This document shows positions 1 through 24,266 of a DNA stretch of 32,000 nt, in pieces. The notes under the pieces are model-generated. The model was not told where the DNA came from, did no database searches, and saw only the letters and a list, made by a program, of their open reading frames with translations. The translations under genes were made by a program, and so were the position numbers. This stretch comes from Candidatus Heimdallarchaeota archaeon B3_Heim (lineage in GTDB: Archaea > Asgardarchaeota > Heimdallarchaeia > Hodarchaeales > Hodarchaeaceae), in NCBI GenBank assembly GCA_003144275.1, contig NJBF01000002.1:1-32000 (forward strand), written 5' to 3'. Position 1 is the stretch's first letter. The number at the start of each line of letters is the position of its first letter.

Positions 1-2
1 TC

Positions 3-528
3 CTGCCCTGGGACACTTGGCTAAAGGGCTATTTTCAGGACCTGGTTGACCTTGGCCTGACCAGGCTCAGGTTACTCTCTTCGGCCCAAACCAGAATGGT
101 GTGGGAGCAGAGCATACGCCACGCCGGTACTCAAGACGGAATACTGAAACCGGGTGCGGCCGCCCGGTCTGCGGACGCAGCATGGAGCTTGCTTCACTCC
201 TGGGATATAAGCCACGATCAGTTGTTGTCCGGGGCCACGAGAGAGAGCGAGGATTTTGCCGCTTGGATGTCTGCCTTTAGGCGGCGCTGTAAACATGAGG
301 AGTGGATCGATGAGGCGGCGCTTCCAGATTTTCTGATGGAGCATGTTAAGCCCGGTGGTATCTTTCCATCTGAGACGATCATTCTGGCCGGTTTCGATGA
401 GATAACACCCCAACAGCAGCGGTTCCTGGAGGTGCTAACCGGTGCCGGCAGCGAAGTAAAGCGGCTGATGCCGGATGGCAGAGACTCAGTTGCGCTAAGG
501 GTTGCCCTGGCGGATACAGGTCAGGAGC
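3..528 (+). CDS. Partial bacterial-type AddB/RexB-like DNA repair protein (TIGR03623-like), internal N-terminal-region fragment; open at window start, truncated at ~528
   Basis: Frame is open from position 3 (LPWDTWL...LLSSAQTRMVWEQSI). Motifs AWSLLHSW, FAAWMSAFRRRC..EEWIDEAALP, LAGFDEITPQQ and LADTGQEL resemble this family as I recall it. GC is 55-67% in spot counts versus ~35% downstream. Confidence 0.65.
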
Positions 529-1319
529 TAAAAAAGCTCACTATCACAATTAATATCGATACTTATGAGTGGGAGCGAATCTTTTACCATGTGGAAAATC
601 TCTTAGATGTTTACTATGATTTCTCCCTGAAAAATGAACTAGTAGTCCCGTTAAAGGGGGTAAATACATTACCTGAGATTACTAGCTTTCTAGCTACCTT
701 CTCGTTGGAATATTACCCCAGTATCAGTGATATATCCGCAACATTTCAGCTACTCAATACGGAAATGTCTCAGGTTCTTAATATCCCCCCATTGGAGGTG
801 GTAGGGATTCCCCGCGATTTTTTATTGCATGTATTACCATTAGAAACTCTGCAATACCGAAATCGTTTTGTCTTAACAGTGTATTACCTTACCAATATCC
901 CTCCTCAAAACAAGCTTTATGTAACTCTCCACTTGGTTACCAGTCTTCAGATTGCATCTCTTACTCTTCTAGGTGCGACAATGACGACTACTAACGAGGA
1001 TATGAAAACTTTACACAAAGTGGGAATGATTTTGGATAAAAATTTCACTCAGGTTGGTCTTAAACTCCATATGGAGGAGGTTTCCGAAGAAATGGTCGGG
1101 GAAATTACCATCCAGATCGACTCTGTAACTCTATCAGTGGATTCCTCCAATTCTGGAAAAGTCTTATTTCGAGAAATAAAGTTGCCTCCTCATCCCATTC
1201 CCGAGGAAGTGATGTCAGTAGTGTTACTGTCGGTTCTTTTCGGTGTTCCACTATATATAGTGTACAAACACCAGGAAAAAGAGGCAAAAAAGCGCTTGCA
1301 TATTTTACGGGAGGGGTAG
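529..1319 (+). CDS. C-terminal part of an archaeal beta-rich surface/secreted protein with a C-terminal transmembrane anchor (5' end missing at the junction)
   Basis: AT-rich part of ORF 96..1319. It ends VMSVVLLSVLFGVPLYIVY followed by the basic tail KHQEKEAKKR. Confidence 0.6.
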
Positions 1320-1440
1320 AATTATAGTATCGAAAAACGAAATAATTGAATGGTTAGTAGGATTTGATTGTTATTTCTTTGGCTATTTAGTTTTCGATAA
1401 TTTCTTCATTGCTTTCATATTAGCGATTATTAGCTCCTTT

Positions 1441-2019
1441 ATGATAATGATGTATCTATCTGCACAGGAACGCACAACTTTCCAAAATAAGAAGCAGGGT
1501 ATAGATATTCCAGTCTATGAATCAGAAATGCTCCCTAATACAATATTACTAGATGACGACAAAGAGCTATATTCATTCACTGGCTTTTTATTTCTCTCTA
1601 CGATTGATGATGACATTTCGGTAGCTACCATACGCTTACAAAGCCAATTTGGTATCTTCCATATCTATAGTCAACTAGGAGCTACTTATCTTCTCTTTTA
1701 CAAATATCCGATCACTCAATCATGGCCAAATTTACCTGAAGTTAAGAAAAAATATATCCTTCAGCAGACCAGGCAACACATAGAGAATTTTGAAAGAGTT
1801 TTACATGAAATGATCCCTGGTATAAAGCATCGGTTTCTCACGATCGAAGAATTAAGAGAGGAACTTGCATTGGGACATAGTCATCAACAACTCCTTGATT
1901 TTCGTCCTTCCTCGGATCCTGCAATTACTCAAACAGCAGTAAAAGCTACTGATATCCCCTCTACTGATCACAAAGTTCAGCAACCACAAGAACTCACCCC
2001 TAAGCTTGTGGTAAAGTGA
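1441..2019 (+). CDS. Hypothetical protein
   Basis: 192-aa ORF with genome-typical composition; no recognised motif. Confidence 0.6.
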   Translation: MIMMYLSAQERTTFQNKKQGIDIPVYESEMLPNTILLDDDKELYSFTGFLFLSTIDDDISVATIRLQSQFGIFHIYSQLGATYLLFYKYPITQSWPNLPEVKKKYILQQTRQHIENFERVLHEMIPGIKHRFLTIEELREELALGHSHQQLLDFRPSSDPAITQTAVKATDIPSTDHKVQQPQELTPKLVVK

Positions 2020-5742: not shown

Positions 5743-6681
5743 TTAAACTCCTATTTTTGTTTTCCAAGCTGCATAACCTGCGGTCTTCAATGCATTGTAA
5801 ACTTTATCCTGAAGCTCTGCTCCTGGAGTTAACATATTTATATTTCCCCCACGTCCTGTACCTGTAACTTTCGCACCCAACGCACCCGCATCTCTAGCTA
5901 TTTTTACCATCTTATCTAACTTTTCATTAGAAACAGTTATTTTTTGTAACAATTCATGATTTTTATTCATGAGCTTGCCTACTTGCTCTAAATTCATCAA
6001 TTCGAGTGCATGACGGCCATCTTTAGCTACTGATTTATACTCTTTCACTATTTCTGCAAACCATTTGGGATTTTCTTCTTTCTTTTCACGTACGTCAGCG
6101 ACTACTACACTTGTATTGGCTGTCATCCCTGAACTTGCTATTACCATATCGACAGGTTTAGAAAGTTTAATGGTTTCCATTGTGTTCGGCCCTCCGTGTA
6201 AATTTTTCACGAAATAGACCAAACCACCAAATGTTGACGCTGTATTATCAATACCACTTGGAGTTCCATGATATCCTTTTTCACCTTCATAAGCAGCTTC
6301 GTTGATTTGAGTATCATTCCATCCCATCTGGTAAGTGTCATTTACGGCTCTCGCTAACGCCACACAACTAGCCGCGGAAGCTCCTACACCACTGGCGCAA
6401 GTTAATTTTCCACCTAAAGTGATTTTCAACTTCTCTTTCTCAAGATCTACGCCCATAAAGGTCAGGACATTGTTTATTGAAATTTTTTGCTCGTCAAATT
6501 TCTTTTTTTTATACCCAGGCACTTCTGGCCGGTTATCAATTAGCTCATATCCCTTCCCCGCTTCAATTTCTACGGTTGCTTCTGTAGAGTCGCCAATTGC
6601 AGAAGCCATTGCAGGTAAACCATAAACGACAAAATGCTCGCCGAATAGTATTGTTTTACCAAAACCTGAACCCGTTCCCAT
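5743..6681 (-). CDS. mvk: Mevalonate kinase (GHMP family)
   Basis: GKTILFGEHFVVYG, SGVGASAA, HGTPSGIDN, GAKVTGTGRGG. SD GGTGA lies 9 nt before the ATG. Confidence 0.93.
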   Translation of the reverse strand: MGTGSGFGKTILFGEHFVVYGLPAMASAIGDSTEATVEIEAGKGYELIDNRPEVPGYKKKKFDEQKISINNVLTFMGVDLEKEKLKITLGGKLTCASGVGASAASCVALARAVNDTYQMGWNDTQINEAAYEGEKGYHGTPSGIDNTASTFGGLVYFVKNLHGGPNTMETIKLSKPVDMVIASSGMTANTSVVVADVREKKEENPKWFAEIVKEYKSVAKDGRHALELMNLEQVGKLMNKNHELLQKITVSNEKLDKMVKIARDAGALGAKVTGTGRGGNINMLTPGAELQDKVYNALKTAGYAAWKTKIGV

Positions 6682-6843
6682 TTTTATTTTTCACCTAAAT
6701 CCTCTATTAGTCATTTTTCCTTGTTATTGCCGAAATAAATCTATCTTTTTCGATATTTTCAGATAAAAATTTTTCCTCACTTGCCTTTTTTTGTCTAGCT
6801 AACTGAGAAAAGTTGATATAAAAATTTATTTCGGAGTACAATT

Positions 6844-8064
6844 ATGAGAACTTTGCTAGATTTCGCTTTAAATGATAAAGTGTGCTTAACTCGTGTAGAT
6901 TTTAACTGTCCGCTTAACGATGATAAAAAAATTCTTGATTATACCCGAATTAAAGCCCATGCTGAAACTGTTAAGGCCATATCTGACAATTTGGGAAAAT
7001 CAGTTATAATTGCTCATCAAGGACGACCAGGAAGTTCTGATTTTACCAGTTTGGCACAACACTCAGAAAAACTACAATTGGTCCTATCAGAAAAATATAA
7101 AGTGGATTTTATTGGACAAACTCACGGAGTTGAGGTTGAACAGAGAATTTCTCAAATGAATTCGGGGAATATACTCGTTCTTGAAAATGTGCGACAAGTA
7201 GAGGGAGAAACCAAGAATAAAACTTCTCAGGAACATGCAAATAATGTTTATATCAAAAGTTTAGCAAAAGTAGGGGATATCTTCATTAATGATGCTTTTT
7301 CAGCTACTCATCGCTCTCATATGAGTTTAGTTGGATTCACTGGTATCTTGCCTTCTGCTGCAGGGCTCATCATGGAAAGGGAAGTCTCAAATCTCCAACG
7401 TGTGGTAGATAATCCTCAAAAGCCATGTGTATTCATATTAGGTGGAGTAAAACCTGAAGACTCATTTAAAGTCGCTGATTATGTCCTAAGAAATGACATT
7501 GCCGATGCGGTCTTAACAGGAGGAGTAATATCTGAAATTTTATTAATTGCCATGGGAAAATCATTAGGTATTCCATCCATGGATTTCTTAAAGAAAAAGA
7601 ATTTACTACAGTTCGTCGATCCAGCAAAAAAGTTGCTATCAGAATTTACAGATAAAATTGAGATTCAACAAGATTTTGCCGTAGATGAAAACGGTCGAAC
7701 GAATTACACTATGAAAGATCTTCCCCTTAAGGCTTCAATTCTTGATATTGGTGAAAAAACAATTCAACTTTATACCGAGATTATTCAAAATTCCTCAACC
7801 TGTGTTTTTAATGGTCCCATGGGTAAATTTGAAGATCCAGAATTCGCAAAAGGCACCCTAGAAGTGTTCAAAGCTATGAGTAAATCGCAAGGTTTTTCTC
7901 TTGCGGGCGGTGGACACAGCATTTCAATTTTGGAAAAAAATAAGCTTAAACTTTCATACATGAGCACCGCTGGTGGTGCTATGATCCGTTTTCTGATGGG
8001 AAAGACACTTCCTGCCATTGATGCTCTTTACACAAATGCACAACAGTTTTCAGTTGAGGATTAG
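6844..8064 (+). CDS. pgk: Phosphoglycerate kinase (archaeal type)
   Basis: RVDFNCP, AHQGRPG, LENVR, FINDAFSATHRSH, NGPMGKFE, GGGHS, STAGGA. Confidence 0.97.
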   Translation: MRTLLDFALNDKVCLTRVDFNCPLNDDKKILDYTRIKAHAETVKAISDNLGKSVIIAHQGRPGSSDFTSLAQHSEKLQLVLSEKYKVDFIGQTHGVEVEQRISQMNSGNILVLENVRQVEGETKNKTSQEHANNVYIKSLAKVGDIFINDAFSATHRSHMSLVGFTGILPSAAGLIMEREVSNLQRVVDNPQKPCVFILGGVKPEDSFKVADYVLRNDIADAVLTGGVISEILLIAMGKSLGIPSMDFLKKKNLLQFVDPAKKLLSEFTDKIEIQQDFAVDENGRTNYTMKDLPLKASILDIGEKTIQLYTEIIQNSSTCVFNGPMGKFEDPEFAKGTLEVFKAMSKSQGFSLAGGGHSISILEKNKLKLSYMSTAGGAMIRFLMGKTLPAIDALYTNAQQFSVED

Positions 8065-8268
8065 ATTTTTAGATTATTAACACATCGTACTTTATCTTCT
8101 ATAATTGTTAAAAGATGAATAATTCCTTTTTCACTCTTTGTTTTTTAGGTGCTAAAAGAAAAAGGAAGAGTTACAGATTCTGTGACTAAAATTAACGAAT
8201 ATTCTTCATATCGGAAAAGATAAAAAAAGAGAATTGAATTATTATACTAAATTCAGAAAAATGTTGAG

Positions 8269-8796
8269 TTGATCATGGTTAAGTCTGAAGAAGTAAAACA
8301 AATTCAAAGCGATTTGGATCTTGTGACTAAAACGGCTAAAGTTTTAGCTACTAAGTTAGAAAAAATATCTCAGAGATTAGACGAAATGATGACTTCTTTG
8401 CAGACGACAGGAGGAGTTACAGGCTCAGCTGTTCAAAAATCTGTTTCTAAAGCAGCACCTAAAGTGCAAAAATCCGTTAAAGCGGCTCCAGCTCCACGAC
8501 CTGAACCTCAGAGGCCAAAAAAGACAATAGCATTTGATAGTACAGGCAGCAAAGCTGGTAGATACCTAGATGCGTTTTTAACACAGCTTCAGGAGCTTAA
8601 AAGAGGAAGAGAAATATGTGATGCGTTATCTCAACTACGAGATCAAGTCATGCAATCTGCAGAAGTTGGATTTCATCCAGCATTCCACGAAATGGGAAGG
8701 GAGGCAAATCGGTTAAAAAACATGGGTGTAATATCAGAGGAAGAGAGAGAAGTTATTATTGAAAAAGTCTATGATTGGAAAGAACGCATTGGATGA
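8269..8796 (+). CDS. Hypothetical protein: N-terminal coiled coil, Ala/Pro/Lys linker, C-terminal helical domain (start may be ATG 8275)
   Basis: Heptad-like LDLVTKTAKVLATKLEKISQRLDEM, low-complexity KAAPKVQK..APAPRPEP, amphipathic helices at the C-terminus. Confidence 0.7.
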   Translation: MIMVKSEEVKQIQSDLDLVTKTAKVLATKLEKISQRLDEMMTSLQTTGGVTGSAVQKSVSKAAPKVQKSVKAAPAPRPEPQRPKKTIAFDSTGSKAGRYLDAFLTQLQELKRGREICDALSQLRDQVMQSAEVGFHPAFHEMGREANRLKNMGVISEEEREVIIEKVYDWKERIG

Positions 8797-8827
8797 CCAT
8801 CATTTCAAAATATGTAGATTCGATTGT

Positions 8828-9346
8828 TTACCCTGATCTAACATGGTTTCCACATTTATTACAGAAGAAGGCATTACCTGGGAGGGTTGACCCACATGAT
8901 GAACATTTACGCTTATTATCCATGTAGGATGGGGTGGAGGAAAACACTGGTTCTTTTTCGTTCTCATTTTTTGTAGTAAATGGACTTGAACTAAACGGAG
9001 AGAAGGCAGCAGCTGAAGAATCATCAGCTGGGGGATCGAAAAAGGACTGTTCGGGTGTGGAAGCTCTTTCCTCTGCAAAATCAACTCGGCCTGTGAGATG
9101 GTCTAATTTGTCAGAAATTTGAGACATGATTGGTATAAATGGACATGAGATTCCCTGCCCGATATCCATTGATGGTGTAATAGAAGAAGATTCGGGACTA
9201 ATAAGCTTAAACCCAATACGTAACCCTTCTGTTTTTTCATTGATGGCAATACCTTGCTCAAGTAGACCTCGGATTACTTCTTTTGCAGAATAAGAGCGGC
9301 CGCGAATGAGAATCCTACCGGAGATTTGATCAAGGGGTTGGTTCAT
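8828..9346 (-). CDS. Zinc-ribbon domain protein
   Basis: C-terminal CSSCG...FCNKCG after a Ser/Pro-rich linker. Confidence 0.75.
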   Translation of the reverse strand: MNQPLDQISGRILIRGRSYSAKEVIRGLLEQGIAINEKTEGLRIGFKLISPESSSITPSMDIGQGISCPFIPIMSQISDKLDHLTGRVDFAEERASTPEQSFFDPPADDSSAAAFSPFSSSPFTTKNENEKEPVFSSTPSYMDNKRKCSSCGSTLPGNAFFCNKCGNHVRSG

Positions 9347-9728
9347 ACCATTGAGTCCTCATTTAGTAAATGAACTGACGAAGATAATAAGAAAAAATAT
9401 CATGCGCGTATTATTGAATTTTCATAAATAGATAGGAATTATTGATTATTCACTGCAGTTTCTTTCAAAGTTCTAATCAATCTGTAGAATAAGGAATCTG
9501 CAAGAAATCTTAAAAAAAACAAAAACTAATAATGAATATTATTATCCCTTAATCCCGTGCAAGAAAATTGCTTAATAAAGCTATTTTTATCAAGATAGTA
9601 TTACGTTTAATTGAGAATTACGAATTCCTTGAGAACAACATTTTTGAAAATGAATAATTTTTAAAAGGATAAGCTGAAAAGACTAGAAGTGACAAAAAAA
9701 AGCATGTCACTAACGTTGAGGTGAAAAA

Positions 9729-9971
9729 ATGCCTGCTGCTTTTGTATTAGTTAATGCCGAAATTGGATCAGAAGATGATGTATTAGAAGAATTAAAAAGT
9801 ACCAGAGGTGTTGTTGGTGCTTGGATAGTTTACGGTGTTTACGACATCGTTGCTAAAATTGAAGCAGATACCATGGAGAAACTCAAGGAAGTCATTACGA
9901 CAAACATTCGTGGCCTTGAGAATGTTCGTTCAACCTTAACAATGATTGTAGTTGATACGGCAAATCAATAG
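9729..9971 (+). CDS. Stand-alone Lrp/AsnC ligand-binding (RAM) domain protein
   Basis: AFVLVN, VYGVYDIVAKI, VRSTLTMI; no HTH. SD GAGGTG at 9718-9723. Confidence 0.9.
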   Translation: MPAAFVLVNAEIGSEDDVLEELKSTRGVVGAWIVYGVYDIVAKIEADTMEKLKEVITTNIRGLENVRSTLTMIVVDTANQ

Positions 9972-10157
9972 CAGAATGATCGGTATAAGAAGACTGGTTT
10001 GAACATTCACGAATAAAAATGCCTGTTCAATCTCATCTATCATTCTCTTCTTTTTTTCCTAAAGACAACGTCATTTCTCCCATTTTAATTTCCTCTTCCT
10101 TGAAAAGATATTTAGGTGATATTGACTTAGAATTTCTCAAATACTTCTGGTGAATAT

Positions 10158-10856
10158 ATGAAACAACTTATGACAAGCATTTATTGGCTCCTTGGTCAAG
10201 GATTTGATTGTAACGTATTCATTATTGAGGCAAAGCAAGAATCAATGATGATAGATACAGGCGCAGGTAATGCTTTGAATCAAAGATTTGGTGCAAGCTC
10301 ACCAAATATTGAAACACTTAAACAAGCGATAAAAACGAAACGAGTTACGCACATTTTTCTGACACATGGTCATATTGACCATATTGGTGGGATTTCTTCA
10401 CTTCAATCTGAGGTGAATTGCACAATATCTGCTTCGTATGAGGAAGCCAGACATTTAACTTCAGGTAACAGTCCATACCTTGATCCGATAATGAATTCAA
10501 CTTGTTCTCCCATCAAGATAACCAAGAAATATGGAGAGGGGGATACAATCACAGTTGGAAATCACCATTTTCAGGTGTTAGAAACACCAGGACATACAAA
10601 AGGATCGTTATCTCTTTACGAACCTGACAAGAAAATACTCATTAGTGGTGATACAGTTTTCCCTCAAGGATCCTTTGGAAGAACTGATCTTCCTTCTGGA
10701 TCTAGTTCAGAGCTTCTAAATTCATTAAAGCGTTTATCTGATCTTGAAATCCATGTTCTTTTACCAGGCCATATGCCTCCTATCATTTCCCAGACACCCA
10801 TTAATTCTATTAAAGATTCATTCCGTAATGCCCAAACTATGCTTTCGTATTATTGA
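10158..10856 (+). CDS. Metallo-beta-lactamase-fold hydrolase
   Basis: IDTG, THGHIDH, TPGHT, SGD, PGH. Confidence 0.92.
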   Translation: MKQLMTSIYWLLGQGFDCNVFIIEAKQESMMIDTGAGNALNQRFGASSPNIETLKQAIKTKRVTHIFLTHGHIDHIGGISSLQSEVNCTISASYEEARHLTSGNSPYLDPIMNSTCSPIKITKKYGEGDTITVGNHHFQVLETPGHTKGSLSLYEPDKKILISGDTVFPQGSFGRTDLPSGSSSELLNSLKRLSDLEIHVLLPGHMPPIISQTPINSIKDSFRNAQTMLSYY

Positions 10857-11348
10857 AATAATTTGTTTACAGGTATCTTCAATGCTTCTTTCATCATTTT
10901 GAATTTCATAAATTATCTCTGGTGGATAAAATTCTGTAAAGTCATAAAATAATACATTCATGATTTCTGCTTCGAGATTTGACTCAATTTTCTCCTCAGA
11001 GTAACACCGTGTTTCAAGTCGTTTCCGTAATGTGGGGGTAGAGGAATGTAGAATAATGATATAATCGATTGGAAGTTTTAGTAATACCATTCCGCTAGAT
11101 ATACAAATTTTATTTGTAGTTCTAAGTTTCCTCAATAGTTCTTTAGTTAAAAGCTCATCATCGACAATTAGGGTATCACGATTAATATCATAGCCAAGAT
11201 ACAGCCCTTCCTTTATGATAAGATCATTTAGCTCCAGAAAATCAAGATTCAGATTACGTGACAAATTTTTTGCTACAGCTGTCTTACCAGTTCCAGGTGT
11301 ACCAGTAATATAAATACGTAACACAGAATTGTCACTCATAACAACCAA
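10818..11348 (-). CDS. AK6/hCINAP/Fap7-like adenylate kinase
   Basis: ITGTPGTGKT and RLETRCYSEEKIESNLEAEI. The His-containing Walker B typical of the family is not evident. Confidence 0.8.
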   Translation of the reverse strand: MVVMSDNSVLRIYITGTPGTGKTAVAKNLSRNLNLDFLELNDLIIKEGLYLGYDINRDTLIVDDELLTKELLRKLRTTNKICISSGMVLLKLPIDYIIILHSSTPTLRKRLETRCYSEEKIESNLEAEIMNVLFYDFTEFYPPEIIYEIQNDERSIEDTCKQIISIIRKHSLGITE

Positions 11349-11474
11349 CTACACTTTATTTGTTAAACTCAGTCTTAATTTACTCCCGATTCTACTTTAT
11401 GTAGGTTTAAATTATGATCTTAATAAAGAGGGTGTAGAAAAGAGAGGATTCTATCCCGAGAATGGTAATGTATC

Positions 11475-13955
11475 GTGAGCTCAACAATTTCAATTGTAGC
11501 GGAAAAACCCTCTATTGCAAGAGCATTAGTTAGAGCATTCTCTATCGTATATAAAATGAAATTTAAAAGCCGAAAAGGTGAAACTCGCTATAATTATATC
11601 TTTGAAGCCTCAATTGAAGAGCAAAAAATCAAGTTTACAATTGAAACAATCGAATATCGATTAAAAAAGGGGGATAAAATACTAGTTTCCAGCGTTACTG
11701 GGCACATTCTCAACTTTGATTATCCCCCACCTTTTGATAAAGATACAAATTGGCATAATTCTGATCCTATCGAAATGGTCGAAATTGAGCCTATTGAAAA
11801 AGCTATTCATGATAATATGATTGACCATCTATTAAATATTGGATCCACTTCCAATGTACTAATAGTTGCAACCGATTGGGATGGTCATGGGGAGGCGATA
11901 GGTCGAGAAATTGTTGAGGTGGCGAGTAGAAATAATAAGAAAATTCGTCATGGTAGAATGAGATTCACAAGCACCAATCCCTTATCTCTCCAACGTGCAT
12001 TTGAATCGCAAACTGGGTTAAATTGGGACTGGATACGACAAGTTGACTCACTGAGAAAGCAAGATCTAAGAATGGGATCTTCTATCACCCGTTTTTTAAC
12101 TGTAGGGGTTCAAGATCGAGGTATACATAATCAGATGATTTCTTACGGCCCATGTCAGACAAGTGTATTGTATTTAATTACTAGTCGATACATCGAGAAT
12201 AAATCATTTATTCCTGAACAATTTTGGAAAATTTCCCTCAAGACTATGGTGAATGATAAGCCATTATTCCTCGACTGGCATGGTAACCCATCTAGCGATG
12301 AAGAAACTATCAATGATATTATAAATAAACTTGAAAAAGAAGAAACGGTGGTTGTTAGTGATTTTAATGAAGAAATAGGCTCAGTTCGAAGACCACTCCC
12401 TCTGGATACAGATACTCTTGAAGCAGAGTGTTCCAATTTTTTTAAAGTAAGTCCGAAGCAAATTTCTGATATCGCAGAACGTCTTTATAATAATGGATTT
12501 ATTACCTACCCAAGAACTGAAAGTTCATATTATCACGAAAAAGATTTAACGAAATTAACCAATATATTTGCCGATCATACCGAATTTGGTGAAATTGCTC
12601 AAGAATGTATAAATCTTGGGGGAGTGACCAACCCGTCAAAGGGACGTTTTACGAAAGATCACGAACCTATTAAACCTGTTAAAGCAATCACAAAAAAAGA
12701 TTTGGAGAAAACATTTGCGAAGACTCCTTCAATTATTAACTTATCTTGGGCAATATATTCTTACATTGTATGGAGATTTCTTGCAACTGTTCATGTTGAT
12801 GCAAAAACCCTTGATCAATACATAATTTTAACTGTTGGTGGAGAAGATTTCAAAGGTAAGGGGAAATTGATAACAGAATTAGGGTTCCTTAAATTCTATC
12901 AATATCGGAATATTGTTTCCTCAGAAATACCGAAATTAGAAAAACTCACTAATTTTCCTTTTGAAACAAATAAACACGTAGGGTTTACTACCCCACCACC
13001 ATTATGGAACGAATCTATGCTAATTCGAAAAATGTCAGAATTAAACCTAGGTACTGACGCCACCCGATCATCTCACATTGATACAGTTCAAAAACGTAGG
13101 TACACTATTCCAACTGGTACTCAGCGGATATTAATTCCTACTCCACTGGGTTTAGCCCTATATCATGTACTTAACAACAATGCACAAGACTTAATCCTTC
13201 CTGAAATTCGAGGAAAAGTAGAATCATGGACACAGCAAATTCGAGAGCACAAAAAAACAGCTGAAGAAGTAGATAAATTAGTAATTGATTTAACTACGCA
13301 AGGTATCATGGCTATGAAATCTAATGAAGAGGATATCTTTTCAACCTTAGCTACAAGCTTTAAAGAGATGACAGGAGTGGGAAATGTCTTAGGAGTGTGT
13401 CCAGACTGTGAAGGAGATTTAATATTAACTCAAGGAAAAAAAGGATCACGATTCTTAAGATGTGCAAATCCTCTTTGTGAAGCAAGTTTTCCTCTTCCAA
13501 AGAAAGGAGAATTAGTAAAATTAGAGGATGAATTCTGTAGGATATGTAATGCTACTCCTTTGTTAGTTACTGTAAAATATCACAATTGGGTAATGTGTCC
13601 AGTTTGTTGGACACGAGAGGCGAGTTCGGATCGTCCTTGGTTTTGTAGTGATTGTAATCGTGAAGAATGCCCGTATTCAGGCTCCTGGAAAGCTAAGACA
13701 AGCGACGAACCTTTAGGTAAATGTCCTGAGTGTAATGGAAATGTTTCCCTTCAAATTAATGATGGTACTGCACAAATAGAGTGTAACTCATGTAATAAGG
13801 TCTGGAAAACCCCCAAACTTCGCCCTAAAATGTCTATTACACTGGGAAAGGCGTGTACAAAATGCGGAAGGAAGACCTTATCAGTTGTAAAACAAGGTAA
13901 AAAGCCTTATCGATTATGTGTTTTCTGCTCTCTTTTTTATTTTGATGATTATTAA
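11475..13955 (+). CDS. topA: Type IA DNA topoisomerase, topoisomerase III (TOP3B-like), with a C-terminal zinc-finger array
   Basis: VAEKPS, SVTGH, ATDWDGHGEAI, SYGPCQT, GFITYPRT (catalytic Tyr codon 12507-12509), LGTDAT. Nine CxxC-type motifs from 13398 onward. Confidence 0.93.
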   Translation: MSSTISIVAEKPSIARALVRAFSIVYKMKFKSRKGETRYNYIFEASIEEQKIKFTIETIEYRLKKGDKILVSSVTGHILNFDYPPPFDKDTNWHNSDPIEMVEIEPIEKAIHDNMIDHLLNIGSTSNVLIVATDWDGHGEAIGREIVEVASRNNKKIRHGRMRFTSTNPLSLQRAFESQTGLNWDWIRQVDSLRKQDLRMGSSITRFLTVGVQDRGIHNQMISYGPCQTSVLYLITSRYIENKSFIPEQFWKISLKTMVNDKPLFLDWHGNPSSDEETINDIINKLEKEETVVVSDFNEEIGSVRRPLPLDTDTLEAECSNFFKVSPKQISDIAERLYNNGFITYPRTESSYYHEKDLTKLTNIFADHTEFGEIAQECINLGGVTNPSKGRFTKDHEPIKPVKAITKKDLEKTFAKTPSIINLSWAIYSYIVWRFLATVHVDAKTLDQYIILTVGGEDFKGKGKLITELGFLKFYQYRNIVSSEIPKLEKLTNFPFETNKHVGFTTPPPLWNESMLIRKMSELNLGTDATRSSHIDTVQKRRYTIPTGTQRILIPTPLGLALYHVLNNNAQDLILPEIRGKVESWTQQIREHKKTAEEVDKLVIDLTTQGIMAMKSNEEDIFSTLATSFKEMTGVGNVLGVCPDCEGDLILTQGKKGSRFLRCANPLCEASFPLPKKGELVKLEDEFCRICNATPLLVTVKYHNWVMCPVCWTREASSDRPWFCSDCNREECPYSGSWKAKTSDEPLGKCPECNGNVSLQINDGTAQIECNSCNKVWKTPKLRPKMSITLGKACTKCGRKTLSVVKQGKKPYRLCVFCSLFYFDDY

Positions 13956-14135
13956 TCCATTTCTGAAAACTTCGGATTCCATGTAAATTCACTTGTATTT
14001 ACGTTAAATTCTTTTTTAATTCAGATCTCTTCTAATCACGAAAATAATCAATATTCAATCATAGATGAATAGAATAATATAAAATACCACAAGGGATAAA
14101 GGAAATTCATCTGCATTCAGTAGCTTGATTAAAAC

Positions 14136-16466
14136 TTGAATGCCGAGAAATCATCTCTTTCAGTGGTATATATGAGTTCTAGTAAAAACTTCGGTAGAGA
14201 TTCCGCCCCCTCTGCAATTCGCTACCTTGTGCTATTAAGCGCACTTGTTTCAGGAGTAACAGCCCTTTCATTTCTTCCAAAATTGGCTGCTCCTAATACT
14301 GCAGAATCGAACTTTCTTGAAGTAGCTATTCCTGTATTCACGGCGTTTGCATTGGTTTCTGTTCTTGAATGGTTTTTATTAGGCCGTTCCCGGAAAATGA
14401 GAGGCCCTTATGGGTTTGCATTTGTGATGGAGATTTTAAAAACGGTTGCTCTGGGAGTGGGAGCAAATGAATATGCTAGAAGTGTTGAAGGAGGATCTTC
14501 TGGAGATTTTTTACTGTTACAATTAACGACAATTGCCATTCTCTTTATGCTTGCCCTCACGAAATTTGCGAGAACCCGAATTGAGGAACTGGCACAAAGA
14601 GATATTAGTAGGCACATTCTGAATTTATTACCAACCATTCTAGTCATTCTCCTTTTTATGGGAACCTATGTTTCTGAAATTGCAGGTCTTGGTACACCCC
14701 GTCAACGCCGTGATTTCGATACATATACTGATAAACCAATTAATTGGGATATGTTTAACACCACCCCTACTTGGGATGCTACCTATATTCTGGAAAATCT
14801 CCTAGATCAGTTCACAGCAGGATTAACTGCTCCTGATATAGTTTTATTTAATGTAACTAGTGACGACCCTACTGATTCTACAGAACCGCCTGCTTATTGG
14901 CGAATATCCAATTTAGACGATTACGAATATACTGATAAACCTCCTTACACCACCGATTGGAATCCAAGTACATCAGTAAAACGCGATACATTTACTTACT
15001 CCAGTGTTGTTCCCTCGGATTCTCGAACTGCACGTTTCACAGTGGAAACGCCTTTAAATCTCAATAGCATAACAGCTGATGTTACCATTCATCCAAGTTT
15101 TCCGAATATGTTACCTACGACTTGGAATGGACCCATGGGATCCTATGTAAGCTCTAATGACTTCAAATTGTATGATAGTGACGATGTTCAGGTATTTCCT
15201 GTAAATCCGTCAGATGAACGTGTAAAGGAAGTTTTTCCCAACGCAGATCCTGACGACCTATTTGGGATCTATGCTAATTTGCAGGTTGCAGATACATCTA
15301 GTGAGGCAGGACGTTTTGAATATATCATGGATTACCAGGCACCTGATATTCAAACAGCCGCTGCATTCTCCTTAACCCGTTCAGAAGCAGATTATCTACG
15401 ATGTGGGATACACCCTGTTACTTGGGAATCAATTAAATCGCGTTATCTTCAGACTCCACAGGTAGTTCCGTTCGGTTTCGCAAACTATGCTGCTTGGGCA
15501 CCATTAGTTGCTAGTACAGCTTCAGATTGGAATGAATCTCAACAAACAGTATTTGGTCAGTCATATGCTAATATGCTAAAATTTGGGAATCAAAGCGAAT
15601 TCACATTTGATACGGATATGTGGCTTGGCGAACAATTGGGATTGATGGCTCATCCAGCTGAATACGAGGATTATAATCAATGGTTTCTCGAAAGAGGTTC
15701 GGGAGTATCTTTACACTTTGCCTCAGCCTATACCATAATTAATCGTATCCAAAAAATTCCTACTCGCGTCGTTATAGGATATTTGGCGGGAAACGACTCT
15801 TATATCTATGGTGGGAAACGTGCAGTCACCTCCCGATTCTTACATGCTTGGGCAGAAGTATTGGTTCCAATAGACCCAAACCCCTTATTACCAGGTGATG
15901 AACGCGTTGAATGGATGAGTTTTGATCCGCTTCTGAGCCAATTGGCTGAACAATATGGTTTCGAGCTTCCCACAGATATTATCCCAACGTCAAGTGAAGA
16001 ACAAACCACATTTATTCGTGCAGATTATGACTTGGAAACAAAAGGTTTAGCACAAGCTTATGTTGATAATGCTCTTGCACAGGCGACAGGTGACTGGATT
16101 TTTGGTAGATGTACGGTTAATAACAGTGTGTTAGGCCAGGGAGCGACTCTTCATGATGGGGATCACGTCATTATATCTACACGTTTTATTTCGGTTCCCT
16201 CAGCCGCTACATGGTTACCTTACAACAATGCAACCGTGTCATTTTACATTGCAACCACAACTGAAAATGCCACTGGAAATATTGAAGATGTTGGTACTCC
16301 AATCGGTTCAGGTATAACTACATCAAATGGAGTGGTAACGATATCTTTGGATATTGATATTGCAACCCATGGGGTTAGAACAGTCAATTTTTATGCTCTG
16401 ATTCTACTAGGCTCAACTCCAGTGCGGAAATTTGCCGTATCGTTTTCATATAGTATCACTTTCTAG
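14136..16466 (+). CDS. Membrane-anchored transglutaminase-like (TgpA-type) protein
   Basis: About 4 N-terminal TM helices; core HFASA...IPTRVVIGY...HAWAEV...WMSFDP. Confidence 0.8.
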   Translation: MNAEKSSLSVVYMSSSKNFGRDSAPSAIRYLVLLSALVSGVTALSFLPKLAAPNTAESNFLEVAIPVFTAFALVSVLEWFLLGRSRKMRGPYGFAFVMEILKTVALGVGANEYARSVEGGSSGDFLLLQLTTIAILFMLALTKFARTRIEELAQRDISRHILNLLPTILVILLFMGTYVSEIAGLGTPRQRRDFDTYTDKPINWDMFNTTPTWDATYILENLLDQFTAGLTAPDIVLFNVTSDDPTDSTEPPAYWRISNLDDYEYTDKPPYTTDWNPSTSVKRDTFTYSSVVPSDSRTARFTVETPLNLNSITADVTIHPSFPNMLPTTWNGPMGSYVSSNDFKLYDSDDVQVFPVNPSDERVKEVFPNADPDDLFGIYANLQVADTSSEAGRFEYIMDYQAPDIQTAAAFSLTRSEADYLRCGIHPVTWESIKSRYLQTPQVVPFGFANYAAWAPLVASTASDWNESQQTVFGQSYANMLKFGNQSEFTFDTDMWLGEQLGLMAHPAEYEDYNQWFLERGSGVSLHFASAYTIINRIQKIPTRVVIGYLAGNDSYIYGGKRAVTSRFLHAWAEVLVPIDPNPLLPGDERVEWMSFDPLLSQLAEQYGFELPTDIIPTSSEEQTTFIRADYDLETKGLAQAYVDNALAQATGDWIFGRCTVNNSVLGQGATLHDGDHVIISTRFISVPSAATWLPYNNATVSFYIATTTENATGNIEDVGTPIGSGITTSNGVVTISLDIDIATHGVRTVNFYALILLGSTPVRKFAVSFSYSITF

Positions 16467-24193: not shown

Positions 24194-24266
24194 GCGCTGA
24201 TAGTCTAGTCTGGTAGGACTCCAGCCTTCCAAGCTGGCTACCCGGGTTCAAATCCCGGTCGGCGCA
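24194..24266 (+). tRNA. tRNA-Gly(TCC), no intron, CCA not encoded
   Basis: Acceptor GCGCTGA/TCGGCGC-A; anticodon arm CCAGC-CTTCCAA-GCTGG; T arm CCGGG-TTCAAAT-CCCGG. Confidence 0.97.

What the first reader, a model, noticed from the sequence alone, without database searches (positions are those of the whole stretch)
11475..13955. Archaeal topoisomerase with a TOP3B-type core and the full TOP3B-like zinc-finger tail
The core has VAEKPS, SYGPCQT and GTDA, with GPCQT being TOP3B-like. The tail (13398-13955) has CPDC, CANPLC, CRIC, CPVC, CSDC..C, CPEC, CNSC, CTKC, CVFC. This maps in order, with similar spacing, onto human TOP3B as I recall it: CGKC, CSHC, CPLD, CPYC, CNEC..C, CVEC, CNKC, CSVC, CVFC; compare also FPLPKKGEL with YTLPQNGTI. 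No RGG tail is present. TOP3B is the eukaryotic dual DNA/RNA topoisomerase, so this may be an archaeal orthologue of the beta paralogue specifically. I cannot verify whether this has already been published.
Basis: partly seen in the sequence, partly recalled or inferred. Interest (0 to 1): 0.75.

Follow-up and report, generated by a model that had tools for sequence, protein, structure and literature searches.

The report
Asgard Top3 with eukaryote-type zinc tail
This is a real, intact type IA DNA topoisomerase gene of a Hodarchaeales (Asgard) archaeon whose five-zinc-site tail matches the tails of both eukaryotic TOP3 enzymes, so it looks like a relative of their common ancestor, not an archaeal TOP3B.

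Summary
It is a complete type IA topoisomerase, with Toprim E10, D134 and D136, catalytic Tyr345, and a 190-aa tail holding 19 conserved cysteines in five zinc modules.

The family occurs in 23 of 24 Hodarchaeales genomes searched. It was not found in 44 other Heimdallarchaeia genomes.

The tail is collinear with TOP3B tails. Its model superposes on the solved human TOP3B C-terminal domain (Z 12.8, 2.4 Å, 96 residues). But the same tail is found in protist TOP3A, upstream of the GRF fingers, and in other Asgard Top3 clades. Profile scores are at least as high against these as against TOP3B.

"GPCQT" is an ancestral state. Site-heterogeneous ML trees join TOP3A and TOP3B (100/99 and 100/100) and leave the Hodarchaeales clade outside. 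A Hodarchaeales+TOP3B clade is rejected with core plus tail (AU p 1.4e-6) but not with the core alone (p 0.055-0.13).

No RGG box, no Pfam TOP3B-ribbon match and no RMI1/TDRD3-type OB partner were found.

Verdict: a co-orthologue of both eukaryotic paralogues. An Asgard-eukaryote Top3 link is already published (PMC12680538). The tail homology adds modestly to it.

The parts
11475..13955 (+). Complete ORF of the type IA topoisomerase (826 aa, GTG start, stop included)
   Evidence: Homologues of 822-831 aa align over 100% of its length.
11493..11969 (+). Toprim domain (residues 7-165), with E10 in VAEKPS and D134/D136/E140 in TDWDGHGE
   Evidence: Pfam PF01751, 35.7 bits against a cut-off of 23.1. 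Motif positions. Aligned to TOP3B VAEKPS and LDCDKEGE.
12048..13271 (+). Topoisom_bac core (residues 192-599, domains II-IV), including SYGPCQT (223) and GTDATR (526)
   Evidence: Pfam PF01131, 288.6 bits, profile 12-409 of 411. Same span found in the genome search.
12507..12509 (+). Codon of the predicted catalytic tyrosine Tyr345 (GFITYPRTESSYY)
   Evidence: Aligned to GYISYPRTETTHY of human TOP3B. PMC11743793 used a Y336F mutant of TOP3B. That Y336 is the Tyr of this motif, and is the catalytic residue, is my own knowledge. Position.
13398..13478 (+). Zinc module 1: C4 ribbon (C642, C645, C663, C668), followed by the conserved LPxxG motif
   Evidence: Sub-threshold PF01396 hit at 641-676. 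Superposes on the TOP3B C4 finger.
13536..13607 (+). Zinc module 2: four cysteines (C688, C691, C708, C711). In human TOP3B this site is three Cys plus an Asp.
   Evidence: PMC11743793 describes the human site.
13644..13670 (+). Zinc module 3: three-cysteine loop site (C724, C727, C732), as in human TOP3B CNECTHPSC
13722..13793 (+). Zinc module 4: C4 ribbon (C750, C753, C770, C773)
   Evidence: The model block is confident.
13854..13928 (+). Zinc module 5: C4 ribbon (C794, C797, C815, C818). The protein ends 8 residues later, without an RGG box.

Best explanation
The gene encodes an active type IA topoisomerase (Topo III type) that is a Hodarchaeales-wide second paralogue, alongside a canonical 686-aa Asgard Topo III elsewhere in the genome. 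By inference from the conserved catalytic set, it cuts one strand of DNA (possibly also RNA) with Tyr345. It would form a 5'-phosphotyrosine link with Mg2+ held by Toprim E10/D134/D136, pass another strand through the gate, and reseal. The 190-residue tail folds into five zinc modules: C4, C4, a 3-Cys loop, C4, C4. By analogy with the solved TOP3B C-terminal domain, these would pack against the core and add a nucleic-acid-binding surface. In evolutionary terms the protein belongs to the archaeal Top3 group nearest to eukaryotic TOP3. It branches outside the TOP3A+TOP3B pair, so it is a co-orthologue of both. Its tail is the ancestral tail of that whole group. TOP3B kept it almost unchanged, protist TOP3A kept it and added GRF and CCHC fingers, and animal and fungal TOP3A reduced it. 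Shown here: domain content, catalytic motifs, tail homology, tree position and distribution. Inferred: enzymatic activity, zinc binding and the role of the tail.
For: Domains and catalytic motifs. Two type IA genes in the genome. Distribution: 23 of 24 genomes of the order at E<=1e-100. All 16 same-genus genomes sampled match, 15 of them at E=0, whereas the 44 other genomes of the class searched do no better than 1e-32 to 1e-48 (42 with any match). Trees under LG+C20+F+G4 PMSF: with the core alone (89 x 597), TOP3A+TOP3B has 100/99 and the Hodarchaeales clade 100/100 lies outside, in a 99/96 group with P0124, P0125, P0128 and Nitrososphaerota. With core plus tail (50 x 794), TOP3A+TOP3B has 100/100. 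AU tests against Hodarchaeales+TOP3B: p 1.4e-6 and 2.6e-4. Conserved-column count: Hodarchaeales = TOP3B but not TOP3A in 3 columns; in 2 both archaeal outgroup sets share that state and in the third only the distant set does. TOP3A = TOP3B but not Hodarchaeales in 16 columns, including the eukaryote-only W132 and C135. Tail: same cysteine offsets in TOP3B, protist TOP3A, and Asgard f23 and P0128. End-to-end profile alignments give scores of 105 (B), 161 (A) and 135 (f23). GRF/CCHC fingers confirm the TOP3A identity of the protist sequences. The AF2 tail model has pLDDT 87.9. It matches TOP3B 618-717 with Z 12.8, rmsd 2.4 Å over 96 residues; the next unrelated hit has Z 6.0, and E. coli Topo I reaches Z 5.5 over 40 residues. 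Human TOP3B C-terminal domain architecture and its core contacts: PMC11743793. Genuine archaeal context: synteny is conserved across the genus, GC is uniform, and homologues carry Hodarchaeales names.
Against: With the core alone, the AU test does not reject Hodarchaeales+TOP3B (p 0.134 under the full mixture; p 0.055 under PMSF). Rejection therefore rests on adding the short, cysteine-rich tail. Eukaryote sampling came from representatives most similar to the query and contains no animal TOP3B, because PDB sequences could not be imported. The order of the three lineages (eukaryotes; the Hodarchaeales group; Wukongarchaeota+f19) is unresolved (82/39, a polytomy). It is therefore not shown that Hodarchaeales hold the closest archaeal relative. 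The tail-less Nitrososphaerota sequences that join the Hodarchaeales group sit on a long branch (0.96-1.21), which may be an artefact. The hhalign scores compare profiles of different depth (32 TOP3A rows against 13 TOP3B rows), so 'better to TOP3A' should be read as 'at least as well'. No activity, zinc content or expression was measured.
Confidence: 0.8

Rival explanations
1. One reading: the protein is the archaeal orthologue of TOP3B specifically. This would mean either that the TOP3A/TOP3B duplication predates the split of Hodarchaeales and eukaryotes, or that a TOP3B-lineage gene was transferred into Hodarchaeales.
For: The best PDB sequence hit is TOP3B, with the alignment running into the tail. 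The first eukaryotic hit in the large database is a TOP3B at 97% coverage. Tail spacing is nearly identical to TOP3B. The structural match has Z 12.8. The core-only AU test does not reject it.
Against: TOP3A+TOP3B is supported at 100/99 and 100/100. With core plus tail the AU p is 1.4e-6 and 2.6e-4. No derived character is shared with TOP3B alone: 2 of the 3 shared columns carry the state of both archaeal outgroup sets, and the third (395) that of the distant set only. TOP3A and TOP3B share W132 and C135, which Hodarchaeales lack. The tail also occurs in TOP3A and other Asgard Top3. There is no PF23546 match, no RGG, and PF08585 was not found in the genome. The higher TOP3B score is what a slowly evolving, architecture-conserving paralogue would give.
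Confidence: 0.05
2. The tail resemblance is generic. Any string of topoisomerase C4 zinc ribbons would line up, so the tail says nothing about a special link to eukaryotic TOP3.
For: Zinc ribbons are repeats, and alternative hhalign registers also score. Euryarchaeal Topo III tails reach a score of 140 over 155 columns. The Foldseek E-values for E. coli Topo I and for TOP3B are similar, about 1.5e-3. Pfam sees only a weak PF01396 hit.
Against: The alignment with eukaryotic tails is end to end and in a single register. It includes the unusual 3-Cys loop site and the invariant LPxxG proline, and 19 cysteine columns are conserved across 40 sequences. The euryarchaeal alignment has 9% identity and similarity 0.26, against 0.45-0.63 for the others. 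The euryarchaeal cysteine pattern is different: 39, 85, 105 with C....C. By VIA-align TOP3B gives Z 12.8 over 96 residues, against Z 5.5 over 40 residues for E. coli Topo I.
Confidence: 0.07
3. On origin: the gene is not vertically inherited from the Asgard ancestor of eukaryotes. It entered the Hodarchaeales stem by transfer, from a mobile element or virus or from a stem eukaryote before the TOP3A/B duplication. This is compatible with the functional reading above.
For: Within the class it was found only in the order Hodarchaeales. Its nearest non-Hodarchaeales relatives, P0128 and P0125, lie on contigs full of small unannotated ORFs. One lies next to a 1391-aa PolB; the other lies among TFIIB, PCNA, ERCC4 and a TnpB gene. 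[quoted passage not shown]
Against: A patchy distribution is equally explained by loss. The element-like nature of those contigs was not tested. No relative of P0128 was found in IMG/VR. Synteny is stable across the order's main genus.
Confidence: 0.3

Closest known systems
Eukaryotic DNA topoisomerase 3-beta (TOP3B; PDB 9cah, 5gve)
   Same: Same type IA core with identical catalytic motifs. Same order and spacing of the five zinc modules. The modelled modules 1-3 superpose on TOP3B 618-717 with Z 12.8 and rmsd 2.4 Å.
   Different: About 28% identity. It branches outside the TOP3A+TOP3B pair. Module 2 has four cysteines where human TOP3B has three Cys and an Asp. It has no RGG box and no PF23546 match. 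PF08585 (RMI1/TDRD3-type OB) was not found in the genome.
Eukaryotic DNA topoisomerase 3-alpha (TOP3A), protist form
   Same: Same core, with GPCQ retained. Same five-module tail, including the intact CxxC of module 2 that most TOP3B have lost. Highest profile score against the Hodarchaeales tail, 161.
   Different: TOP3A adds GRF and CCHC fingers after the tail and has F instead of T after GPCQ. Animal and fungal TOP3A have reduced or lost the five-module region.
Eukaryote-related Top3 of the 'Heimdall clan', Sifarchaeia and Wukongarchaeia (Nat Ecol Evol 2025, PMC12680538, Extended Data Fig. 4f)
   Same: The same phenomenon: extra, polyphyletic Top3 copies in Asgard archaea, one set of which is related to eukaryotic Top3. 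My trees likewise place the Hodarchaeales, Wukongarchaeota and f19 sequences in one 99/97 clade with eukaryotes.
   Different: The main text of that paper does not describe the C-terminal zinc tail or resolve alpha from beta. Its supplement was not available here.
Canonical archaeal Topo III (e.g. Saccharolobus, PDB 6k8n; the window genome's own paralogue L001:1168-3228)
   Same: Same enzyme class and domain order.
   Different: It has GRVQ instead of GPCQ and one ribbon or a short two-ribbon tail with different spacing. It is much more distant, at 4e-33 in PDB, and forms a separate clade.

Membership tests
Type IA DNA topoisomerase (Topo III subfamily) | Toprim domain with the acidic metal-binding residues (E, DxD) | tested here: met
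   PF01751 above cut-off. E10, D134 and D136 are aligned to those of TOP3B.
Type IA DNA topoisomerase (Topo III subfamily) | Topoisom_bac core with the catalytic tyrosine in the YPRTE motif | tested here: met
   PF01131 at 288.6 bits over nearly the full profile. ITYPRTES at 343, aligned to the TOP3B catalytic-tyrosine motif.
Type IA DNA topoisomerase (Topo III subfamily) | Mg2+-dependent single-strand passage activity | not testable with these tools
   Needs a biochemical assay.
TOP3B orthologue group | Core branches with TOP3B to the exclusion of TOP3A | tested here: not met
   TOP3A+TOP3B has 100/99 and 100/100 with Hodarchaeales outside. AU p is 1.4e-6 and 2.6e-4 with core plus tail. With the core alone it is not formally rejected: p 0.134 and 0.055.
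TOP3B orthologue group | First ribbon matches Pfam Zn_ribbon_TOP3B (PF23546) | tested here: not met
   No PF23546 hit at E<=1. Genuine TOP3B proteins score 46-63 bits. None of the Hodarchaeales homologues carries it.
TOP3B orthologue group | Five zinc sites in the order C4, 3Cys+1, 3Cys, C4, C4 | tested here: met
   The feature is not exclusive to TOP3B: it is also present in protist TOP3A and in Asgard f23 and P0128.
TOP3B orthologue group | C-terminal RGG box | tested here: not met
   No RGG in the protein, which ends 8 residues after the last cysteine.
TOP3B orthologue group | TDRD3-type DUF1767/OB-fold partner encoded in the genome | tested here: inconclusive
   PF08585 found nothing at E<=1 in the 94%-complete genome. 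A divergent OB-fold partner could be missed.
TOP3A orthologue group | GRF and/or CCHC zinc fingers after the ribbon region; F after GPCQ | tested here: not met
   No PF06839 or PF00098 hit. The protein has GPCQT and branches outside TOP3A.
Eukaryote-related archaeal Top3 clade (Hodarchaeales, Wukongarchaeota, f19 and relatives, plus eukaryotes) | Groups with eukaryotic TOP3 to the exclusion of canonical euryarchaeal and Asgard Topo III | tested here: met
   A 64-row clade with 99/97 support and a 42-row clade with 100/96.

The most novel reading that the evidence does not exclude
The Hodarchaeales enzyme preserves the pre-duplication state of eukaryotic TOP3. On this reading the five-zinc C-terminal domain, until now described as a peculiarity of TOP3B, was already assembled in Asgard archaea or in their mobile elements. 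TOP3B would be the conservative paralogue and TOP3A the innovator. Tail-dependent properties of TOP3B, such as clamping of the core by the C-terminal domain and perhaps dual DNA/RNA activity, would then predate eukaryotes and could be tested in an archaeal protein that needs no TDRD3.
Probability: 0.35. Interest if true: 0.55.

Novelty: new member of a known kind. Interest (0 to 1): 0.4.

Why it matters
TOP3B is the only known RNA topoisomerase of animals, and the origin of its cysteine-rich tail has been unclear. A 2022 survey stated that its fingers share no further similarity with other topoisomerase zinc repeats (PMC9369019). The same five-module tail sits on an order-wide Asgard enzyme, on other Asgard Top3 clades and on protist TOP3A. 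That dates the tail to before the TOP3A/TOP3B duplication. It also offers a simpler archaeal protein in which to study what the tail does. The finding does not show an archaeal 'TOP3B', and the general Asgard-eukaryote Top3 relationship is already published, so the advance is incremental.

Tried and rejected
- Single-sequence AlphaFold of residues 600-826 gave pLDDT 45.5 and was unusable. It was replaced by a 40-sequence alignment model.
- Foldseek against the PDB gave no hit at E<=1e-3. The E. coli Topo I rows had rmsd of 13-18 Å. VIA-align was used to rank the hits instead.
- Pairwise BLAST of the tail against one TOP3B and one TOP3A was uninformative, both at about E 0.002-0.003.
- treekit's AU test under the full C20 mixture did not finish for the core-plus-tail set. 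I reran it by hand with the stored PMSF site frequencies.
- PF08585 (RMI1/TDRD3 OB domain) found nothing in the genome.
- An IMG/VR scan with P0128 found no relative.
- The supplement of PMC12680538, which holds the Top3-specific text, is not held.
- Contamination by eukaryotic DNA was considered and rejected. The gene is present with conserved neighbours across the genus and in 23 of 24 genomes of the order, and it lies in a window of uniform 35-40% GC around it.
- The earlier-findings look-up held no note on this gene.
- Expression (sequencing runs) and complex prediction were not attempted.
Full report
**Observation.** The window holds one uninterrupted ORF at 11475-13955 on the + strand (826 aa, GTG start).
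- The tail holds nine cysteine motifs between residues 642 and 818, i.e. window 13398-13928.
- There is no RGG.
- The later human motifs lie beyond the solved construct. TOP3B from other eukaryotes has CxxC pairs at almost the same offsets as the query.

**What it is.**
- Pfam finds Toprim (7-165) and Topoisom_bac (192-599) well above their cut-offs. It finds a sub-threshold Zn_ribbon_Top1 at 641-676 and no match to the TOP3B-specific ribbon model PF23546.
- NCBIfam matches archaeal Topo I/III models, all below their equivalog cut-offs.
- The catalytic set is intact: E10, D134, D136 and Tyr345 in ITYPRTES.
- Named homologues place the organism in the Hodarchaeales, an order of Asgard archaea. 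An earlier scan note on a neighbouring window agrees.
- The genome (3.95 Mb, 94% complete) has two type IA genes: this one, and a 686-aa enzyme with a single ribbon on contig 44.
- The 826-aa family is present in 23 of 24 genomes of the order, including a second family at 44-45% identity.
- Forty-four other genomes of the same class were searched. Forty-two have only a distant match (1e-32 to 1e-48) and two have none.
- The neighbours (MBL-fold hydrolase, AAA_18 kinase, transglutaminase-like protein) are conserved across the genus. This shows stable residence but suggests no functional partner.

**Is the core of the TOP3B type?**
- Sequence searches put TOP3B slightly ahead of TOP3A: 1.4e-66 against 7e-59 in the PDB.
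- An ML tree of the core (89 sequences, 597 columns, LG+C20+F+G4 PMSF) joins TOP3A (22 sequences) and TOP3B (15) with 100/99 support.
- The same tree places the Hodarchaeales clade (100/100) outside that pair. It sits with three unnamed metagenomic proteins and tail-less Nitrososphaerota enzymes (99/96). All of these, plus Wukongarchaeota and an Asgard family f19, form a 99/97 clade with eukaryotes.
- Adding the tail (50 sequences, 794 columns) raises TOP3A+TOP3B to 100/100.
- Forcing Hodarchaeales+TOP3B costs 37-52 lnL units with the core alone. That is not significant: AU p 0.134 under the full mixture and 0.055 under PMSF.
- With core plus tail the cost is 106-116 units, which is significant: p 1.4e-6 under PMSF and 2.6e-4 under LG+G4.
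- I counted columns that are strongly conserved within each group. Only three have Hodarchaeales = TOP3B but not TOP3A; in two of them both archaeal outgroup sets share that state, and in the third (395) only the distant set does. Sixteen have TOP3A = TOP3B but not Hodarchaeales, including W132 and C135, which only eukaryotes possess.
- The 'GPCQT' signature is ancestral. Protist TOP3A has GPCQF, only animal and fungal TOP3A have GSCQF, and several archaeal lineages have GPCQT/S.

**Is the tail TOP3B-like?** Yes, but not only TOP3B-like.

| Tail, offsets measured from core position 600 | Cysteine motif offsets |
|---|---|
| Query | 43, 64, 89, 109, 125, 151, 171, 195, 216 |
| Cryptosporidium TOP3B | 43, 63, -, 108, 126, 146, 170, 194, 216 |
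| Protist TOP3A (Apiculatamorpha, P0183) | 47, 72, 94, 116, 134, 154, 178, 201, 226 |
| Asgard family f23 (Top3 in the canonical clade) | 42, 64, 86, 106, 116, 143, 160, 182, 204 |
| Unnamed protein P0128 | 43, 68, 91, 107, 122, 153, 173, 199, 225 |

- The protist proteins are genuine TOP3A. They carry GRF and/or CCHC fingers after this region and sit in the TOP3A clade.
- Profile-profile alignments of the Hodarchaeales tail are end to end and cysteine to cysteine with all of these. Local scores are 105 against TOP3B, 161 against TOP3A and 135 against f23. The TOP3A profile is deeper, so I read this as 'at least as well'.
- In a 40-sequence alignment spanning these groups, 19 cysteines and the proline of LPxxG are invariant or nearly so.
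- The alignment-based AlphaFold model of residues 630-826 is confident (pLDDT 87.9).
- Its first 100 residues superpose on human TOP3B 618-717 with Z 12.8 and rmsd 2.4 Å over 96 residues. That is far above the next, unrelated rows (Z 6.0) and above E. coli Topo I (Z 5.5 over one 40-residue ribbon).
- The published TOP3B structure describes exactly this series: a C4 finger, a site with three Cys and an Asp, a three-Cys loop site, and two further predicted C4 fingers (PMC11743793). In the query the second site has all four cysteines, as in protist TOP3A.
- No solved structure covers the TOP3A five-module region, so structure cannot separate alpha from beta.

**Mechanism.** The enzyme is most likely an active Topo III-type strand-passage enzyme whose five zinc modules extend the nucleic-acid-binding surface and pack on the core as in TOP3B. 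Enzymatic activity, zinc binding and any RNA activity are inferences. Many type IA enzymes have RNA topoisomerase activity (stated in PMC8185306), so such activity would not by itself make this a TOP3B. PF08585 (RMI1/TDRD3-type OB domain) was not found in the genome.

**Comparison with the literature.** A 2025 study of Asgard replisome genes already reports that Top3 is a polyphyletic multi-copy gene in Asgard archaea. It reports that one eukaryotic Top3 clade is related to Top3 of the 'Heimdall clan', Sifarchaeia and Wukongarchaeia, and that HGT around eukaryogenesis is probable (PMC12680538). My trees agree. I found no description of the tail homology there. A 2022 survey regarded the TOP3B fingers as unrelated to other topoisomerase repeats (PMC9369019). 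The new element is therefore the demonstration that the five-module tail is shared by Hodarchaeales, other Asgard Top3, TOP3A and TOP3B.

**Origin.** The restriction to one order, and the context of the nearest relatives, leave room for a mobile-element route. P0128 lies at the end of a 160-kb contig, beside a 1391-aa PolB and many small unannotated ORFs. P0125 lies among TFIIB, PCNA, ERCC4 and TnpB genes. I did not establish this.

**Verdict.** It is a new member of a known kind and of moderate interest.

Noticed in passing
L035 and L036, 1-9612 (P0128 at 6001-8556): P0128 is one of the closest non-Hodarchaeales relatives and has the same five-module tail. It sits at the end of a 160-kb metagenomic contig, next to a 1391-aa family B DNA polymerase and a run of small ORFs with no Pfam match. 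This looks like a large virus or mobile element. No relative was found in IMG/VR.
   Followed up: partly
L037, 1-18265 (P0125 at 8001-10265): P0125, the sister of P0128, lies among TFIIB, PCNA, an ERCC4-like nuclease, a TnpB/IS605 gene, a DNA methylase and many unannotated small ORFs. This is an archaeal replication/repair island or mobile element.
   Followed up: no
L001:1168-3228 (-), contig 44 of the same genome: This is the genome's second type IA topoisomerase (686 aa, GRVQ motif, one Zn_ribbon_Top1). It sits on a very long branch (1.99 substitutions per site) within the canonical Asgard Topo III clade.
   Followed up: partly
L025, L026, L031, L032 (Asgard family f23) and L028-L030 (f18): The cores of the Top3 proteins of these Asgard families group with the canonical Asgard Topo III. 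Yet f23 carries a nine-motif, five-module tail like the query, and f18 a shortened version. The tail type is therefore older, or more mobile, than the eukaryote-like core.
   Followed up: partly
P0077-P0084, P0089, P0091 (Nitrososphaerota, about 590 aa): Tail-less Nitrososphaerota/Aigarchaeota type IA enzymes group with the Hodarchaeales clade at 97-99% support, but on a branch about 1 substitution per site long. This may be long-branch attraction.
   Followed up: no
window 10158-16466: The gene order MBL-fold hydrolase, AAA_18 kinase (opposite strand), Top3, transglutaminase-like protein (776 aa) is conserved in 12 or more genomes of the genus at 46-96% protein identity.
   Followed up: yes
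window 1-2000: GC is 0.43 in the first 2 kb, against 0.33-0.40 elsewhere. The ORF at 96-1319 has no Pfam match. An earlier scan note (e1-5444628) suspects a chimeric join near position 530.
   Followed up: no
window 24194-24266 (+): A single tRNA gene was detected by Rfam (66.9 bits).
   Followed up: no
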